Position numbers and translations under genes: made by a program. The notes beneath the pieces are model-generated. The model did no database searches, was not told where the DNA came from, and worked only from the letters and a program-made list of their open reading frames with translations. 41,169 nt of DNA from a virus (lineage: Duplodnaviria; Caudoviricetes). Position 1 is the stretch's first letter. Each line of letters begins with the position of its first letter. The stretch covers positions 1 through 41,169 of IMG/VR virus record IMGVR_UViG_3300037484_000062, one strand, 5' to 3'. Shown here piece after piece: positions 2,744-15,509 of the stretch.

Positions 2744-4138
2744 TTATATGCCCTTCCACTGCATCTGCTCAGAGGAACGACGATCTTTCACGATGCCGTC
2801 GTTTCGCTCCAGCGCCTGCCCGAACGTCTCGTCGATGTTCCACACCGTGGGCTCCGGCACGCGGACCCGCCCACGTGGCACCGTCATGCACGCATACCGG
2901 AAGGCGTCCGCCGGGTGTGATGTCCAGTCGTGCACCGGCTTCGCACTCCACAGTCGGTTGTGCGTGTCCCATTCCTTCCGGTAGTGCCGCAGCGCCTTCA
3001 CGCCGTCCGCACACTTCGTCTTGTCAAATCGGCTCCTCGGGATCACCAGCCGCGCCGCCTGCACCCCTTCGTCGACGCTCAACCTCGGCACGATGCGGAA
3101 GAACACCCCGAGGTCAGCAGCCGTCTGCCAGCGGCTCGTGCCCGTCCCAAGCTCCCGCACCTTGATGTCGTGCGGCGCCCAGTGCTCCTTGTACACGTAG
3201 GGCTTGGTCTGGAGCACCTTCACGTAGTGATCCAGACCCTCCCCGCTGCTCGCGTAGAAGTCGATCCAGTGCACGTAGCTGTCCACCACCTGGTAGAACC
3301 ATATCGCCGTCGCGTCCCGCATCCCGAGGTCCCACGACGTGTGCACCGGGTACTCCCGCCGCCAGAGAACGTCGCCAATGCGACCTTCTCTCTCCGCCTC
3401 GTCCAGCTCCCGCCCCCAGTACGCCCCTGTGAGGGGCGCACTGAAATCGCAGTAATACTCCTGCCGGATCAGCTCGTCCGGCATCCCGCTCCGCCGATCC
3501 TCAGCGATCAGAGCTTCCGTCACCACCGGGGTGCCGTCAGCACGCCGCGTGTCGTCCACCGTGAGAGTCTCACTGAACCACGTCTCGCTCTCCCGCGCCT
3601 GCGCCATCACGTCGTAGAAGTGGTTGTAGCCTCGCGGCGTGCTGATGAACGCCGCCGTGCCGTCGTTCTCGTTCAAGATCGGCCGGATGTAGTCCCAGCA
3701 CTGCGGGTCCGCCAGCGCATACTCCGAGAAGATCACCAGCGCCGGGTTCGCCCCCATCAGCTTGTCCGGCTGGTCCGATCCCACGCACTGGTAGATGCTC
3801 CCCCCGTGCTCCTTCTTGAACTGCAGCAGCATCTGATCGTCCCGCCGCTTCTCGATCAACTCCGGGTGGAAATAGTCCAGGAAGCCGTGTCCCTCACTCG
3901 TCATGCCGTTCCACACCACCCGCCGCGCCTGGTTGAACTGCGGCAAGAGGTGCCACACCAGACACGACCGCTCCAGCATGAAAATCTGCGCGATGTTCAG
4001 CATCAGCAGATCCTTGCCAGCCCGCCGATGCCAGCACAGCGCAGCCCGCTTCTTCCCATCCTTCAGCAGCGCGTCCCAGCACGGCCGCTGATACCCGCGC
4101 GGCTTGAACCCCAGGTGCGGGATCACCAGGTCAGCCAT
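2744..4138 (-). CDS. terL: Terminase large subunit
   Basis: Walker A-like WHRRAGKD, Walker B VIFSEY, motif III ISTPRG, nuclease WDLG and HDWTSHPADAFRY. Confidence 0.95.
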   Translation of the reverse strand: MADLVIPHLGFKPRGYQRPCWDALLKDGKKRAALCWHRRAGKDLLMLNIAQIFMLERSCLVWHLLPQFNQARRVVWNGMTSEGHGFLDYFHPELIEKRRDDQMLLQFKKEHGGSIYQCVGSDQPDKLMGANPALVIFSEYALADPQCWDYIRPILNENDGTAAFISTPRGYNHFYDVMAQARESETWFSETLTVDDTRRADGTPVVTEALIAEDRRSGMPDELIRQEYYCDFSAPLTGAYWGRELDEAEREGRIGDVLWRREYPVHTSWDLGMRDATAIWFYQVVDSYVHWIDFYASSGEGLDHYVKVLQTKPYVYKEHWAPHDIKVRELGTGTSRWQTAADLGVFFRIVPRLSVDEGVQAARLVIPRSRFDKTKCADGVKALRHYRKEWDTHNRLWSAKPVHDWTSHPADAFRYACMTVPRGRVRVPEPTVWNIDETFGQALERNDGIVKDRRSSEQMQWKGI

Positions 4139-4586
4139 CAAAGTCCTTGTTGATCACCACGTTCACCTGCGTCTGATTGGTTGCGGCTCCGCGCTCCCCA
4201 CCTATGCGTCCATCCAAGATGATCTCCTCAGCCGCTCGAGCGTATGCCAACTGACCGGCGTATGCCAACTGACTCTCGTCCAGAGCACGCTTGTGCACCG
4301 CGTGCTGGACTTGCTCCAGCGCGCAGCCCTTCGCAAAAAGGTACTCGCCGTAGAACCGTGTGAACGCCGGATGACCAGCCGCTCCCCACCTCTTCACCTG
4401 CTGCCACTCATGCACCGTCATGCCACTCTTGAGAGCTGCAGCAGCCTCACTACCACCATCTCTCAAGCACTGCAGCCCCCACCCCAACTCGCATGGCTCA
4501 TCGCGCAAAGCCACCAGGCTGCGAAGACGGGGGGTCAACTTGTCAGTGTCAGGGGGTACAACAACCAGCGGGGCACGCTGTGCCAT
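4131..4586 (-). CDS. Putative terminase small subunit (151 aa, probably leaderless)
   Basis: Immediately upstream of and overlapping TerL; C-terminal TQVNVVINK strand is typical of TerS; ATG 4586 lies 7 nt after a -10 box. Confidence 0.6.
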   Translation of the reverse strand: MAQRAPLVVVPPDTDKLTPRLRSLVALRDEPCELGWGLQCLRDGGSEAAAALKSGMTVHEWQQVKRWGAAGHPAFTRFYGEYLFAKGCALEQVQHAVHKRALDESQLAYAGQLAYARAAEEIILDGRIGGERGAATNQTQVNVVINKDFDG

Positions 4587-9627: not shown

Positions 9628-9851
9628 TGGCCTTGTCCTACGACCCTGCGACCATCCTGGGCTTCGCGCTGGAGTGGTTCGACAAGCACGAGCATCGGCG
9701 CCCGCGCTGCACGTGCTCGACCAACGCCAACGTCACGGAGACGCTGTCGACCGCAGTGCACAAGCCCGAGTGCCCGGTGTACGCCTTCACGCAGGAAGGA
9801 TGGCGGTGGGCAACCGATTGGTATTATGAGATGCACAATGACGGACATTAA
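9627..9851 (+). CDS. Hypothetical protein with CxC...HxxxC (74 aa)
   Basis: GGAGG RBS, TGATG coupling. Confidence 0.65.
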   Translation: MALSYDPATILGFALEWFDKHEHRRPRCTCSTNANVTETLSTAVHKPECPVYAFTQEGWRWATDWYYEMHNDGH

Positions 9852-10317
9852 AGAACGCTTCTGGTCGAAGGTTGACATTCGTGGACCCGAAGAATGCTGG
9901 TTCTGGAGAGCTGGGAGACTCGCAAGTGGCTACGGAGCGTTCTGGGTTGGCCGGACAATGGTGAACGCGCATCGCGTGGCTTGGAAACTGGCCTACGGTG
10001 AAATACCAGATGGCCTATTTTGCTGCCACACTTGCGATCAACGCCCGTGCTGCAACCCGCAGCACTTGTTCATCGGGACTAACTCAGAGAATATAAGAGA
10101 CGCCGTGAAGAAGGGCAGACTGACTAGAAGGAGGGGAGAGGACCATCCTTGTGCGAAGCTGACTCAATCCGATGTGAGATCCATTCGTGAGCGTCTAGTA
10201 GAGGGGTCTTCTGAGAGGGAAATAGCAGGAGCGTTCCAGGTGAGTAGACGGTGTGTCAGAAACATCAAACTAGGGCGGAGTTGGGCTTGGCTAGGAGGAT
10301 GTAATGACCACCCCTGA
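9838..10317 (+). CDS. Free-standing HNH homing endonuclease with C-terminal HTH
   Basis: RFWSKV..CW.W..GYG..AHRVAW..CHTCD...CCNPQHL..GT.SEN..D..KGR; lower GC than flanks. Confidence 0.9.
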   Translation: MTDIKERFWSKVDIRGPEECWFWRAGRLASGYGAFWVGRTMVNAHRVAWKLAYGEIPDGLFCCHTCDQRPCCNPQHLFIGTNSENIRDAVKKGRLTRRRGEDHPCAKLTQSDVRSIRERLVEGSSEREIAGAFQVSRRCVRNIKLGRSWAWLGGCNDHP

Positions 10318-12681: not shown

Positions 12682-12872
12682 GCTACCGAGAGATGGTGAT
12701 TGACGCCGGGTTGAACCCTGACAGCGACGAGGGTCGGCAGCTTGCCGCCCATATCGAGGAGGAGGAAAGGCGCCTATTTGCTCGCTGGCAGTGTCGGCTC
12801 TGTGGTGCGTACAACGACCACGACGAACCAATTTGCTTCTGCACGTACGACGAGGATTGGACGGTGAGGTGA
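12678..12872 (+). CDS. Cassette protein (64 aa) with a RanBP2-like W.C..C...N......C..C zinc finger
   Basis: WQCRLCGAYNDHDEPICFC; stops inside the junction element at 12863. Confidence 0.7.
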   Translation: MSYREMVIDAGLNPDSDEGRQLAAHIEEEERRLFARWQCRLCGAYNDHDEPICFCTYDEDWTVR

Positions 12873-12912
12873 AGCCATCTTCAACGGAGAGCAACACGAA
12901 AGGGAGTGAACC

Positions 12913-13002
12913 ATGAACACCACGACGGCATTGCTCATCATCGTTCTGCTGGTTCTGCTCTTCGGCGGCTGGAACTACTACTGGCCGGGGAGGCGCGACT
13001 GA
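12913..13002 (+). CDS. Small membrane peptide (29 aa, MNTTTALLIIVLLVLLFGGWNYYWPGRRD)
   Basis: AGGGAG RBS; TGATG coupling to the helicase. Confidence 0.6.
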   Translation: MNTTTALLIIVLLVLLFGGWNYYWPGRRD

Positions 13003-15509
13003 TGCGACTCGTCTGCCTTCCTGACCGCCTGTGCCTGACCGGGTCCGATGCGGTGCACTCGGCCCGTTTTGGGGCGATCCCCGGCGCTCGCTGGAACAAG
13101 GGCCTGATGTGCTGGGAGTACCCGAGGTCGCCGTTCGCGGCGAGGGCGGTTGTGGGGATTGCAGAGCGGAAGGGCATTGCCTGCGATCTGAGCAATGAAG
13201 CGACCATGATCCTCCGCCAGTTCGATGCCATCATGCACGCTAAGAAGTGGAAGAGCGAAGAGACTCCCATCCCCTCGGACAAGTGGGATACAGAGACTGA
13301 ACCTTGGGCACACCAGCGGCGTGCATCCCATTTCATCGCTCCGATGGTTGCCGCCTACCTCGCGCTGGACATGGGCACAGGCAAGACACTGGTGGCGATC
13401 AACGAGATCCTCGAGACTGAGGCTCAGCAGACCCTGATCATCTCCCCACTCTCCGTACTCGACGTGTGGGTGGACGAGTTCAGAACCCACTGCAGCCCCA
13501 CCAGGATGCCCCACGTCTGCGTCCTGACCAAGCCGACTACCGAGGGCAAGGCCAAGGAAGCACAGCGGCAGCAGGGGCTGGCACGGGCCGAGTCCAGGCC
13601 GCTCGTAGTTCTTGTCAACTATGAGTCGGCCTGGAGAGGGGGGCTGGGTGAGTGGCTGCTGAAGCAGACCTGGGACATGGTGATCCTCGACGAGTGCCTG
13701 CCAGCCGGCACACAGATCGCCACCCAAAATGGTCAGAAGCCGATCGAAGGGGTGACCGTTGGGGACGTTGTACTCGGGATGGACGGAGATCAAATCGTCA
13801 AAACAACTGTGCTGAATACCTGGGCGCGTGATACAATGGCACCATTGGTTGAAGTGGGACCAATCAAGGCGACTGGCAACCACCCGATCTGGACACGAAG
13901 GGGGTACGTCGATGCCTCACAAACGGTGCCATCCGATCACGTGCGAATACTGCGGAGAGACGGTCCTTCAGGACAATCCTTCGAGGAGGTTCTGCTCGAA
14001 GAGTTGCCGCACCAGAGCCATGTGGGAAGCGAGCCCGGAACTTCGAGAAGCGCAGTCGAAGAGGATGCAACTCCTGCGGCAAGATCCGTCCGTGCAGGAA
14101 AAACTCCGCGCCTATCTCGAGGGTCCAACCAACCCGCTCCGAGATCCAGCGGTGATCCAGAAAGCGCAGGAAGCAGCAGCGGCCAGGGGGTTCGAGCATC
14201 TGAACGGCGGGAATGGCAAGCCCATCGCCCAGCAACAGCAGAAACTGTTCTCTATGTTGGGGGCAGGATGGTCACTGGAGTACGTTTTGAGGACCGGCAT
14301 GGTGCCTCACCACTACAAGATCGACATCGCCAACCCGACAGCCAAGGTAGCAATCGAGGTGGATGGGACAGGGCACCAAGCGAAGAAGATCATGGAAGCA
14401 GACAGGCGGAAGGATCTCTTCCTAGCCAACCAGGGATGGATGGTGATCCGGGTGCGGAACGAGCATGTGACACCAGCCGTCGCGTCTTCAATTTTGAAAC
14501 TGTCACAGGCAATTACTTCGCCAACGGACTCCTAGTTCATAACTGTCACAAGGTGAAGGGAAACTCCACGCAGATCAGCCGCTGGGCGTCGCGCTTGCAC
14601 CACTCCGCGAGGCGCAGGCTCTGCCTCTCCGGCACCCCGCTGCCGAACAACCAGCTCGACGTGTTCGGGCAGTTCCGCTTCCTCGACCCGGCGCTGTTCG
14701 GCTCCAACTTCACCAAGTTCAAGGCGAGGTACTGCCGCATGGGCGGGTACGGGAAGTACGAGATCGTGGAGTGGCTGCGCCAGGACGAGTTCAAGCTCCG
14801 CATGGACGCGATCACTTTCCGTGTGGACAAGTCTGTGCTAGATTTGCCAAGTACCATGTGCATCGACCGCTACTGCACGCTCGAGCCGGACAGCGAGGCC
14901 GCTCGGGTGTACAGGGACGTGAAGAACGAGTTTGTGGCAGACGTGCAGAGCGGCGTGGTGACTGCGGCCAATGCGCTCACCCGCCTGCTCCGCCTGCAGC
15001 AGATCACGAGCGGTTTCGTGGGCGTCGAAGGCCACGGCGAGCAGTGGCTGGGCGACCACAAGCGTGACCTGCTGCACGAGGTGCTCGAGGGCATCGACCC
15101 GAGCGAGCCCGTGGTGGTGTTCTGCCGGTTCCGCAGGGACCTGGAGAGTGTGCATTACGTGGCCGAGAAGCTGGGCCGCGCCTGGGGCGAGTTGTCAGGG
15201 GTGCAGAACGACCTCGTCGCCGGCAAGCTGCCCGAGGGCATCAAGGTGCTCGGCGTGCAGATCCAAGCGGGCGGGCTGGGCGTCAACCTGATCGCCGCCC
15301 GGTACTGCATCTTCTACTCGGTCGGATTCTCACTGGCCGACTACGAGCAGGCCAAGGCGCGGGTGCACCGGGGCGGGCAGACCAGGGCGGTGACCTACGT
15401 CAACCTGATCGCCAAGGGCACGGTGGACCGACAAGTCTACAGCGCCCTGGACGCGAAGCGCGAAGCGGTGGACGAGATCATGGACGCGATCAAGAGAGGT
15501 GAAGTATGA
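13002..15509 (+). CDS. SNF2-family (DEXH) helicase containing an intein
   Basis: DMGTGKT, ILDE|CH, LSGTP, GGLGVNL, QAKARVHRGGQ; start reassigned to ATG 13002. Confidence 0.92.
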   Translation: MRLVCLPDRLCLTGSDAVHSARFGAIPGARWNKGLMCWEYPRSPFAARAVVGIAERKGIACDLSNEATMILRQFDAIMHAKKWKSEETPIPSDKWDTETEPWAHQRRASHFIAPMVAAYLALDMGTGKTLVAINEILETEAQQTLIISPLSVLDVWVDEFRTHCSPTRMPHVCVLTKPTTEGKAKEAQRQQGLARAESRPLVVLVNYESAWRGGLGEWLLKQTWDMVILDECLPAGTQIATQNGQKPIEGVTVGDVVLGMDGDQIVKTTVLNTWARDTMAPLVEVGPIKATGNHPIWTRRGYVDASQTVPSDHVRILRRDGPSGQSFEEVLLEELPHQSHVGSEPGTSRSAVEEDATPAARSVRAGKTPRLSRGSNQPAPRSSGDPESAGSSSGQGVRASERREWQAHRPATAETVLYVGGRMVTGVRFEDRHGASPLQDRHRQPDSQGSNRGGWDRAPSEEDHGSRQAEGSLPSQPGMDGDPGAERACDTSRRVFNFETVTGNYFANGLLVHNCHKVKGNSTQISRWASRLHHSARRRLCLSGTPLPNNQLDVFGQFRFLDPALFGSNFTKFKARYCRMGGYGKYEIVEWLRQDEFKLRMDAITFRVDKSVLDLPSTMCIDRYCTLEPDSEAARVYRDVKNEFVADVQSGVVTAANALTRLLRLQQITSGFVGVEGHGEQWLGDHKRDLLHEVLEGIDPSEPVVVFCRFRRDLESVHYVAEKLGRAWGELSGVQNDLVAGKLPEGIKVLGVQIQAGGLGVNLIAARYCIFYSVGFSLADYEQAKARVHRGGQTRAVTYVNLIAKGTVDRQVYSALDAKREAVDEIMDAIKRGEV
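13695..14543 (+). mobile_element. Intein (283 aa) inserted in helicase motif II (DE^CH)
   Basis: Block A CLPAGTQI, block B ATGNHPIW, block F VFNFET...NYFANG, block G LVHN followed by Cys +1. Confidence 0.92.
13912..14535 (+). CDS. DUF559/Vsr-like endonuclease with N-terminal zinc finger, nested in the +1 frame of the intein (207 aa)
   Basis: CEYC...FCSKSC; YKIDIA...VAIEVDG..H......DRRKD.FL...GWMVIRV; GAAGGGGG RBS before ATG 13912. Confidence 0.85.
   Translation: MPHKRCHPITCEYCGETVLQDNPSRRFCSKSCRTRAMWEASPELREAQSKRMQLLRQDPSVQEKLRAYLEGPTNPLRDPAVIQKAQEAAAARGFEHLNGGNGKPIAQQQQKLFSMLGAGWSLEYVLRTGMVPHHYKIDIANPTAKVAIEVDGTGHQAKKIMEADRRKDLFLANQGWMVIRVRNEHVTPAVASSILKLSQAITSPTDS

What the first reader, a model, noticed from the sequence alone, without database searches (positions are those of the whole stretch)
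13695..14543. Helicase intein whose endonuclease is a separate gene overprinted in the +1 frame
Seen: the intein (C1...HN|C) interrupts the DECH motif, and its frame stays open for 283 codons. The region between blocks B and F is Ser/Gly/Arg-rich with no LAGLIDADG or HNH motif. The +1 frame holds a complete 207-aa zinc-finger plus DUF559/Vsr-like nuclease (ATG 13912 with a GAAGGGGG RBS, stop 14535) that overlaps splicing blocks F/G. Established: canonical inteins carry their homing endonuclease in frame. Inference: about 620 bp is dual-coding, the nuclease is translated independently of the helicase, and the intein frame is kept stop-free only to allow splicing. Similar second-frame architectures may already be reported for some phage inteins, so novelty needs a literature check.
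Basis: partly seen in the sequence, partly recalled or inferred. Interest (0 to 1): 0.82.

Follow-up and report, generated by a model that had tools for sequence, protein, structure and literature searches.

The report
Intein hiding a frame-shifted homing nuclease
A phage helicase gene carries an intein (a protein insert that likely splices itself out) whose middle also encodes, one base out of frame, a separate predicted DNA-cutting enzyme that likely spreads the insert; this layout is real and common in phages, but inteins with out-of-frame nucleases have been described before.

Summary
Confirmed. A 283-codon intein (13695-14543) splits the Walker B motif (DE|CH) of a phage SNF2 helicase. 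The +1 frame encodes a 207-aa zinc-finger plus DUF559/EDxHD-type nuclease (13912-14535). It is not an assembly error: 130 of 160 related loci are contiguous inteins in the same register, none in +2, and six cultured-phage loci checked carry it unannotated. Selection acts on the nuclease frame (pN/pS 0.21-0.63, host frame 1.0-2.0). A Vibrio phage pair shares the intein at 96% in exteins 77-78% alike, the mark of recent homing. One correction: the intein frame is not pure filler. In most members the nuclease's GWxVxRF codons also spell the intein's pre-block-F segment, with strong codon bias; this copy lacks that segment, so its splicing is less certain. Out-of-frame intein nucleases are in print (2025-2026 preprints); I found no paper on this same-strand Vsr-like family. 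This scan found the same family before on other DNA. Translation, splicing and cleavage are untested. New variant of a known kind.

The parts
13002..13694 (+). SNF2-family helicase N-extein (231 aa, ends ...ILDE of Walker B)
   Evidence: Pfam SNF2-rel_dom E 5.5e-21; PHROG 62 DNA helicase; start codon chosen from sequence
13695..14543 (+). Intein, 283 aa: Cys1, block B Thr60-x-x-His63, block F from about 14484, His282-Asn283
   Evidence: AlphaFold model with Hint strands and a disordered middle, Foldseek hits to inteins/BILs, best E 2.6e-6
13897..13904 (+). Shine-Dalgarno-like GAAGGGGG, written in the R-R-G codons just after block B
   Evidence: sequence; anti-SD pairing -12.1 kcal/mol, strongest of 114 loci
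13912..14535 (+). Overprinted +1-frame ORF, 207 aa: C11/C14/C28/C32 zinc finger, helical linker, GGNG motif, Vsr-like/DUF559 nuclease domain (D138, E149, D151, H155, D164)
14434..14460 (+). Nuclease GW-x-V-x-R motif; in most relatives the same bases encode the intein's pre-block-F segment, which is degenerate in this copy
14544..15509 (+). Helicase C-extein (starts Cys-His; Helicase_C domain)
   Evidence: Pfam Helicase_C E 1.5e-8; 217 of 317 residues identical to P0012

Best explanation
The helicase gene carries a contiguous intein whose middle also encodes a separate +1-frame Vsr-like (EDxHD-type) nuclease; the intein likely splices out to restore the helicase's DECH motif, and the nuclease is likely translated from its own ribosome-binding site and predicted to cut intein-free helicase alleles so that repair copies the whole element (homing). 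Shown: both frames, their conservation across about 116 distinct elements, selection on the nuclease frame, a recently transferred copy in Vibrio phages. Inferred: translation from ATG 13912, splicing, cleavage and its target. Most of the intein-frame product across the overlap is disordered filler that must only avoid stops, but in most members one stretch (nuclease GWxVxRF = intein RV[ED]S[VI]E[IV]) likely serves both proteins, which would lock the register at +1.
For: 130 of 160 related loci are contiguous inteins with the nuclease in +1, none in +2; 15 more agree but lack one detectable end; 116 distinct at 95% identity, 59 at 50%. 102 of 112 sit right after a Walker-B-type DE, in SF2 helicases, DnaX-like clamp loaders, terminases, UvrD and a D12 methylase. 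In 14 independent pairs pN/pS is 0.21-0.63 in the nuclease frame and 1.00-1.97 in the intein frame. D138 and E149 are kept in 116 of 116, D151, H155, D164 in 115 of 116 (E149/D151 were partly in the search patterns, D164 and GGNG were not). Profile hits to 3HRL (E 3.3e-7) and I-Bth0305I 3R3P (E 0.0099), with H155/D164/D138 spaced like H213/D222/D196 (numbering inferred). SD-like pairing at 72% of 54 single-ATG starts against 23% of 1330 control ATGs. Vibrio phages 1.088.O and 1.027.O: intein 1023 of 1068 bases identical, flanking exteins 322 of 411 and 297 of 384; in the overlap 31 synonymous/4 non-synonymous codons in +1 against 5/29 in the host frame; an intein-free allele is 94% identical to one of them. 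Dual-use stretch: Gly wobble G in 90 of 108 against 428 of 1298 other Gly codons, Leu as TTR in 82 of 89 against 689 of 1502; it aligns with the strand-like segment of in-frame inteins and through them with solved inteins 7CFV and 6RPQ.
Against: No expression, splicing or cleavage data. This copy lacks the consensus pre-block-F segment (reads GMDGDPGAE) and the model builds no strand there, so its splicing may be weak or use another segment. Foldseek gave no nuclease match at E <= 0.001 (best relevant 3HRL and 3R3P at E 0.013). No close intein-free allele of this helicase was found (nearest 45% identical, site DEAH), so homing of this copy is not shown. The public gene call for this ORF is 171 aa, i.e. 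a later start (P0003). The codon alignments were made in the nuclease frame, and members are related, which inflates the p-values.
Confidence: 0.82

Rival explanations
1. The nuclease is made by a programmed +1 ribosomal frameshift as an N-extein/N-intein/nuclease fusion, not from its own start.
For: In the window the +1 frame opens at 13816, 32 codons before the ATG, so a shift is physically possible; locus L095 has the nuclease fused in frame to the N-intein.
Against: 103 of 114 loci have an ATG before the zinc finger, with SD enrichment; start positions differ between lineages (about -10, +9, +21, +25 to +37 codons from block B), unlike a fixed shift site; I did not search for slippery motifs.
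Confidence: 0.07
2. The architecture is real in the family, but this copy is a fading one: the nuclease or the splicing domain no longer works well.
For: Degenerate pre-block-F segment and shorter C-terminal region than most members (36 codons from the GW motif to the intein end against 44-52 in most); long branch in the quick tree; shortened relics exist in the family (5 of 46).
Against: All splicing and nuclease catalytic residues are present; the independent relative P0012/P0004 keeps the same layout with 81% identity in the nuclease frame against 62% in the intein frame; helicase exteins are intact and must be joined for Walker B to form (established helicase knowledge).
Confidence: 0.09
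3. Two compensating sequencing or assembly indels moved an ordinary in-frame intein nuclease out of frame.
For: No reads over the intein were available; an in-frame form exists in UvrD inteins (5 of 160 loci).
Against: Same register in 130 of 160 loci, in six cultured-phage loci and in the closest independent relative; both frames are open over the whole overlap.
Confidence: 0.01

Closest known systems
Non-canonical actinobacteriophage inteins (Gosselin, Arsenault, Gogarten; bioRxiv 10.1101/2025.01.02.630785; abstract, passages, sections 8 and 15 read; supplements closed)
   Same: Contiguous intein with a nuclease ORF in another frame, unstructured intein-frame middle; one type is VSR-like with an HHpred match to 3R3P; signs of continued homing.
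   Different: Their VSR-like type is on the antisense strand and their same-strand type is endonuclease VII-like in frame 3; hosts named are DNA polymerase, minor capsid, terminase and thymidylate synthase, and the forms are called rare. Here: same strand, +1, mostly Walker B sites of helicases and clamp loaders, over 100 distinct elements. Their supplementary tables, which I could not see, may list individual members.
Cyanobacterial dnaX intein with overlapping endonuclease (Phillips, DeSimone, Gogarten; bioRxiv 10.64898/2026.09.14.751524; abstract, sections 3, 11, 17 read; traces the idea to Gorbalenya 1998, not read)
   Same: Same-strand overlapping ORF ('+2 ORF') with putative Shine-Dalgarno, low dN/dS in the nuclease frame and raised dN/dS in the intein frame, disordered intein-frame middle.
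   Different: LAGLIDADG nuclease, one host gene, cyanobacterial chromosomes; called a rarity. No dual-use motif or split derivatives described in the sections read.
Vsr-like / EDxHD homing endonucleases and fractured genes (Dassa et al. 2009, PMC2677866, passages and section 16 read; I-Bth0305I, PMC3239194, passages read)
   Same: C-terminal Vsr-like catalytic domain with matching Asp/His/Asp spacing; nuclease 3' end overlapping the C-intein coding region.
   Different: There the intein is split and the nuclease free-standing between the halves or in a group I intron, with NUMOD-type N-terminal repeats; here the intein is contiguous and the N-terminus is a zinc finger. Their model does not include a dual-coded contiguous state.
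ShiLan element in phage methylases (PMC11855218; search listing and start of abstract only)
   Same: Insertion whose nuclease is hidden in another reading frame while the host frame stays open.
   Different: HNH nuclease; not identified as an intein.

Membership tests
Class 1 intein | Cys/Ser1, block B TxxH, penultimate His, terminal Asn, +1 Cys/Ser/Thr | tested here: met
   C1, T60-G-N-H63, H282, N283, C+1; TIGR01443 above cut-off
Class 1 intein | Hint fold | tested here: met
   Model strands at both ends, pLDDT about 90; Foldseek best E 2.6e-6 to 2LWY, then gp41-1, DnaB inteins
Class 1 intein | Strand-like segment preceding block F | tested here: inconclusive
   Present in 82 of 108 relatives as x[VIL]xx[VIL]x[VIL]; not recognisable in this copy, not built in the model
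Class 1 intein | Protein splicing | not testable with these tools
   Needs expression assay
EDxHD / Vsr-like homing endonuclease | Vsr-like catalytic domain | tested here: met
   DUF559 E 1.9e-10; 3HRL E 3.3e-7, 3R3P E 0.0099; Foldseek only E 0.013, target TM 0.77 and 0.61
EDxHD / Vsr-like homing endonuclease | Catalytic Asp, His, Asp (D196, H213, D222 of I-Bth0305I) | tested here: met
   D138, H155, D164 with the same spacing; kept in 115-116 of 116
EDxHD / Vsr-like homing endonuclease | N-terminal NUMOD-type repeats as in I-Bth0305I | tested here: not met
   No NUMOD family among Pfam hits up to E 1; weak FCS/YacG-like zinc finger instead. So it works like I-Bth0305I but is a different subfamily
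EDxHD / Vsr-like homing endonuclease | Cleavage of the element-free allele | not testable with these tools
   Only indirect: recent transfer pattern in Vibrio phages
Non-canonical intein with out-of-frame homing endonuclease | Separate nuclease ORF over an open, unstructured intein frame | tested here: met
Non-canonical intein with out-of-frame homing endonuclease | Purifying selection on the nuclease frame, relaxed on the intein frame | tested here: met
Antisense VSR-like intein type of Gosselin et al. | Nuclease on the antisense strand | tested here: not met
   Same strand, +1
Fractured gene (split intein with free-standing nuclease; Dassa 2009) | Intein broken into two ORFs by stops | tested here: not met
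   Window frame is open; met in relatives L071, L076, L167

The most novel reading that the evidence does not exclude
This is one large, old and still homing family of dual-coded inteins, missed by annotation, whose +1 register is locked because the nuclease's conserved GWxVxRF codons also encode part of the intein's C-terminal splicing domain; and it is a direct precursor of natural split inteins, which arise when stops accumulate in the filler frame while that shared stretch is kept behind a new start codon (L044 with one stop; L071, L076, L167 with many, all in the original phase).
Probability: 0.45. Interest if true: 0.7.

Novelty: new variant of a known kind. Interest (0 to 1): 0.52.

Why it matters
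The papers read call out-of-frame intein nucleases rare; here one family holds over 100 distinct elements in at least five kinds of host protein, and GenBank records of cultured phages miss the nuclease gene, so such inteins look nuclease-less to annotation. The family shows dual-coded, shortened, split and in-frame states side by side, which makes the proposed routes between them (out-of-frame to in-frame; origin of split inteins) testable. Corynebacterium phages phi673 (intein) and phi674 (no intein, exteins 99% identical) grow on the same laboratory strain and give a ready homing test.

Tried and rejected
Reads: one DNA run listed with a 0.07 share, no RNA holder listed; laid at 80% likeness it covered nothing of the intein: no test of assembly or expression. 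Close relatives with DNA: none for the nuclease in viral contigs; nearest intein-free helicases only 45% identical. Promoter scan 12800-14700: no sigma-70-like site, 2 terminator-like hits against 1.2 +/- 1.0 in shuffles; no strong hairpin claim for the start region. PHROGs has no family for the nuclease at E 1e-5. Direction of evolution: the careful tree did not finish; the quick tree (142 rows) has 14 starred of 139 branches and does not force more than one origin for in-frame, broken or intein-less forms; FastTree makes the four distinct in-frame UvrD inteins one clade on splicing domains (support 1.0) and nests L071/L076 among +1 forms at only 0.74-0.87, without a root: direction unresolved. 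A search for DNA of the methylase inteins P0019/P0021 found none. Literature searches; none returned a paper on a same-strand Vsr/DUF559 nuclease in contiguous helicase inteins; the phi673 paper (PMC6132909, passage read) notes the intein but no nuclease in it. The library lacks most subscription papers. The last part of script crashed, so the frameshift-window statistic was not obtained.

Full report
Observation. The window is a 41,169-base virus record of a tailed phage: terminase, portal, major head protein and primase genes are found by PHROGs (36 ORFs scanned). In its replication module a SNF2-family helicase ORF (ATG 13002 to 15509, 835 aa) is interrupted after ...ILDE by a 283-codon insert that starts with Cys and ends His-Asn before Cys-His. 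The +1 frame holds a 207-aa ORF from ATG 13912 to TAG 14535 with a DUF559 hit (E 1.9e-10) and a weak zinc-finger hit. The SD-like GAAGGGGG is written in the codons just after block B and the stop codon in the L-V codons of block G. AlphaFold gives the intein frame a Hint core with residues 93-264 of the model disordered (Foldseek), and the +1 product a confident model (mean pLDDT 84.6). In the overlap the GC content at third positions of the host frame falls from 0.80-0.91 in the exteins to 0.45.

Not an artefact. Reads were not available. But the nuclease alignment A1 retrieved the best 80 of 268 viral and the best 80 of 253 metagenome loci (the metagenome scan covered 17 of 64 parts). Of these 160, 130 are contiguous inteins with the nuclease in +1 and none in +2; 15 agree but have one end cut off or undetected; 5 are in-frame; 5 are broken or split; 5 have no intein (the intein-end profiles were seeded from the viral loci themselves, and checked with NCBIfam on four inteins). 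After removing near-copies there are 116 distinct +1 elements at 95% and 59 at 50% identity, window included. In genome contigs 7 of 8 loci are contiguous +1 and one is split. A search from the intein side gave 46 distinct inteins with both ends among 80 loci: 36 full +1, 5 shortened +1, 5 other; it is biased to this family because the confirmation used the whole intein frame. Among cultured phages 42 records match; the six loci I opened (Corynebacterium phi673, Pseudomonas MR14, Vibrio 1.088.O, 1.027.O, 104E43.1, CP-T1) all have an open helicase frame and a +1 nuclease ORF, and none annotates the nuclease. The window's closest relative, from another assembly, has the same two frames (P0004 on P0012, 174 of 174).

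Hosts. 102 of 112 inteins sit directly after a DE, 81 in DE|CH. Hosts sampled with Pfam are SNF2, ResIII/DEAD-type helicases, DnaX-like clamp loaders, a strawberry-notch-type AAA_34 protein, terminases, UvrD and a D12 methylase (a subset of 35 extein or ORF pieces, 11 without a hit).

Selection. In 14 non-overlapping pairs of at least 60% identity, third codon positions of the nuclease frame are the most variable; pN/pS is 0.21-0.63 in that frame and 1.00-1.97 in the intein frame. Window against nine closest loci: 42-50% identity in the nuclease frame, 19-27% in the intein frame. Synonymous shuffling predicts 962 intein-frame stops over 127 loci; none is seen, although those loci were chosen as open. 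Catalytic residues are nearly invariant and are spaced like D196, H213 and D222 of I-Bth0305I. Of 114 loci, 103 have an ATG before the zinc finger; 72% of the 54 single-ATG starts have SD-like pairing against 23% of 1330 control ATGs.

Homing. Vibrio phages 1.088.O and 1.027.O share the intein at 1023 of 1068 bases while their exteins match at 322 of 411 and 297 of 384; 1.027.O's exteins match the intein-free phage 141E35-1 at 94%. That pattern is what recent homing gives (inference). phi673 and phi674 differ by the 302-codon intein in helicases otherwise 99% identical; the empty site in phi674 reads DEVHH. For the window's own copy no close empty allele was found.

The intein frame is mostly filler, but not all. 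At the nuclease's invariant GWxVxRF motif the silent positions are strongly biased: Gly wobble G in 90 of 108 (other Gly codons 428 of 1298; the invariant GGNG glycines are near uniform; 3 of 11 in loci that are not dual-coded), Val wobble purine in 89 of 97, Leu as TTR in 82 of 89; the bias holds in 56 representatives at 50% and 24 at 45% identity. The intein frame then reads RV[ED]S[VI]E[IV]. This aligns with the segment that in-frame UvrD inteins carry after their nuclease, which in turn aligns with the segment before block F in solved inteins 7CFV and 6RPQ. That it is a beta-strand of the Hint fold rests on these alignments and on my own knowledge of the fold. Shortened relics keep it (L172, L179, L190, L197, L203), and split forms start their C-intein just before it (L071, L076, L167). 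An RNA-level or codon-pair cause is not excluded. The window's copy is among the minority without this segment, a real caveat for its splicing.

States of the family. Split forms L071 and L076 have 30 and 26 stops in the intein frame yet keep both halves in phase over 325 codons; L044 has one stop. In-frame forms are one clade of UvrD inteins. Trees do not settle the direction.

Mechanism. Shown: two open frames, conservation, frame-specific selection, a transfer pattern. Inferred: the precursor splices to give a 552-aa helicase with DECH restored; ribosomes also start at ATG 13912 on the same message; the zinc-finger/Vsr-like protein cuts an intein-free Walker B allele in co-infection, and repair copies the element. 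Confidence 0.82; rivals are a fading copy (0.09), frameshifted fusion (0.07) and assembly error (0.01).

Known or new. Out-of-frame intein nucleases are in print: antisense LAGLIDADG, antisense VSR-like and frame-3 endonuclease VII types (bioRxiv 10.1101/2025.01.02.630785), and the same-strand LAGLIDADG of cyanobacterial dnaX with dN/dS and SD evidence (bioRxiv 10.64898/2026.09.14.751524). Vsr-like nucleases between split inteins date from Dassa et al. 2009 (PMC2677866). Six searches found no paper on a same-strand +1 Vsr-like family in helicase inteins; bioRxiv supplements were closed and could bear on this. Earlier notes of this scan report the same family on other genomes; I looked at them after my own family analysis and they did not change my reading. 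Verdict: real, a new variant of a known kind, interest 0.52; the size of the family, the shared stretch and the phi673/phi674 pair are what a specialist would value.

Noticed in passing
L071:747-1721, L076:548-1522, L167 (about 1700-2970): Natural split versions: N-intein ends in a stop at the nuclease start, the nuclease is free-standing, and the C-intein has its own Met just before the shared motif; halves of L071 and L076 are still in phase.
   Followed up: partly
L073, L074, L117, L123, L133: UvrD-type helicases with a contiguous intein carrying the same Vsr-like nuclease in frame, without the zinc finger; one clade on splicing domains.
   Followed up: partly
L095:1982-3117: Nuclease fused in frame to the N-intein, ending in a stop; C-intein in another frame with its own Met. 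Split intermediate or a single-base error.
   Followed up: partly
L247:1180-2277 and L233:1252-2055: Inteins with a long +1 ORF of another nuclease class: HNH hit E 2.8e-5 in L247, weak E 0.005 in L233. Host gene not identified by Pfam.
   Followed up: partly
proteins P0019, P0021: D12 methylases with a related intein whose disordered middle differs from the Vsr-type pattern; by eye it could be the out-of-frame trace of a GIY-YIG gene (motif recalled, not tested; no DNA found).
   Followed up: partly
L172, L179, L190, L197, L203: Shortened inteins (171-192 aa) with internally deleted +1 nuclease relics that keep the C-terminal shared stretch.
   Followed up: partly
L250 and L253 (phi673, phi674): The intein-free helicase has Val where the intein-bearing one has the +1 Cys, so the Cys would have to be co-converted in homing.
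   Followed up: yes
window 9826-10317 (+): Free-standing HNH endonuclease ORF, 163 aa (PHROG hits).
   Followed up: no
window 2744-4141 (-): Terminase large subunit gene lies far from the portal and head genes at the other end of the record, suggesting a circularly permuted contig.
   Followed up: no
L120, L148: Free-standing copies of the nuclease placed directly before helicase-like genes, without an intein.
   Followed up: no
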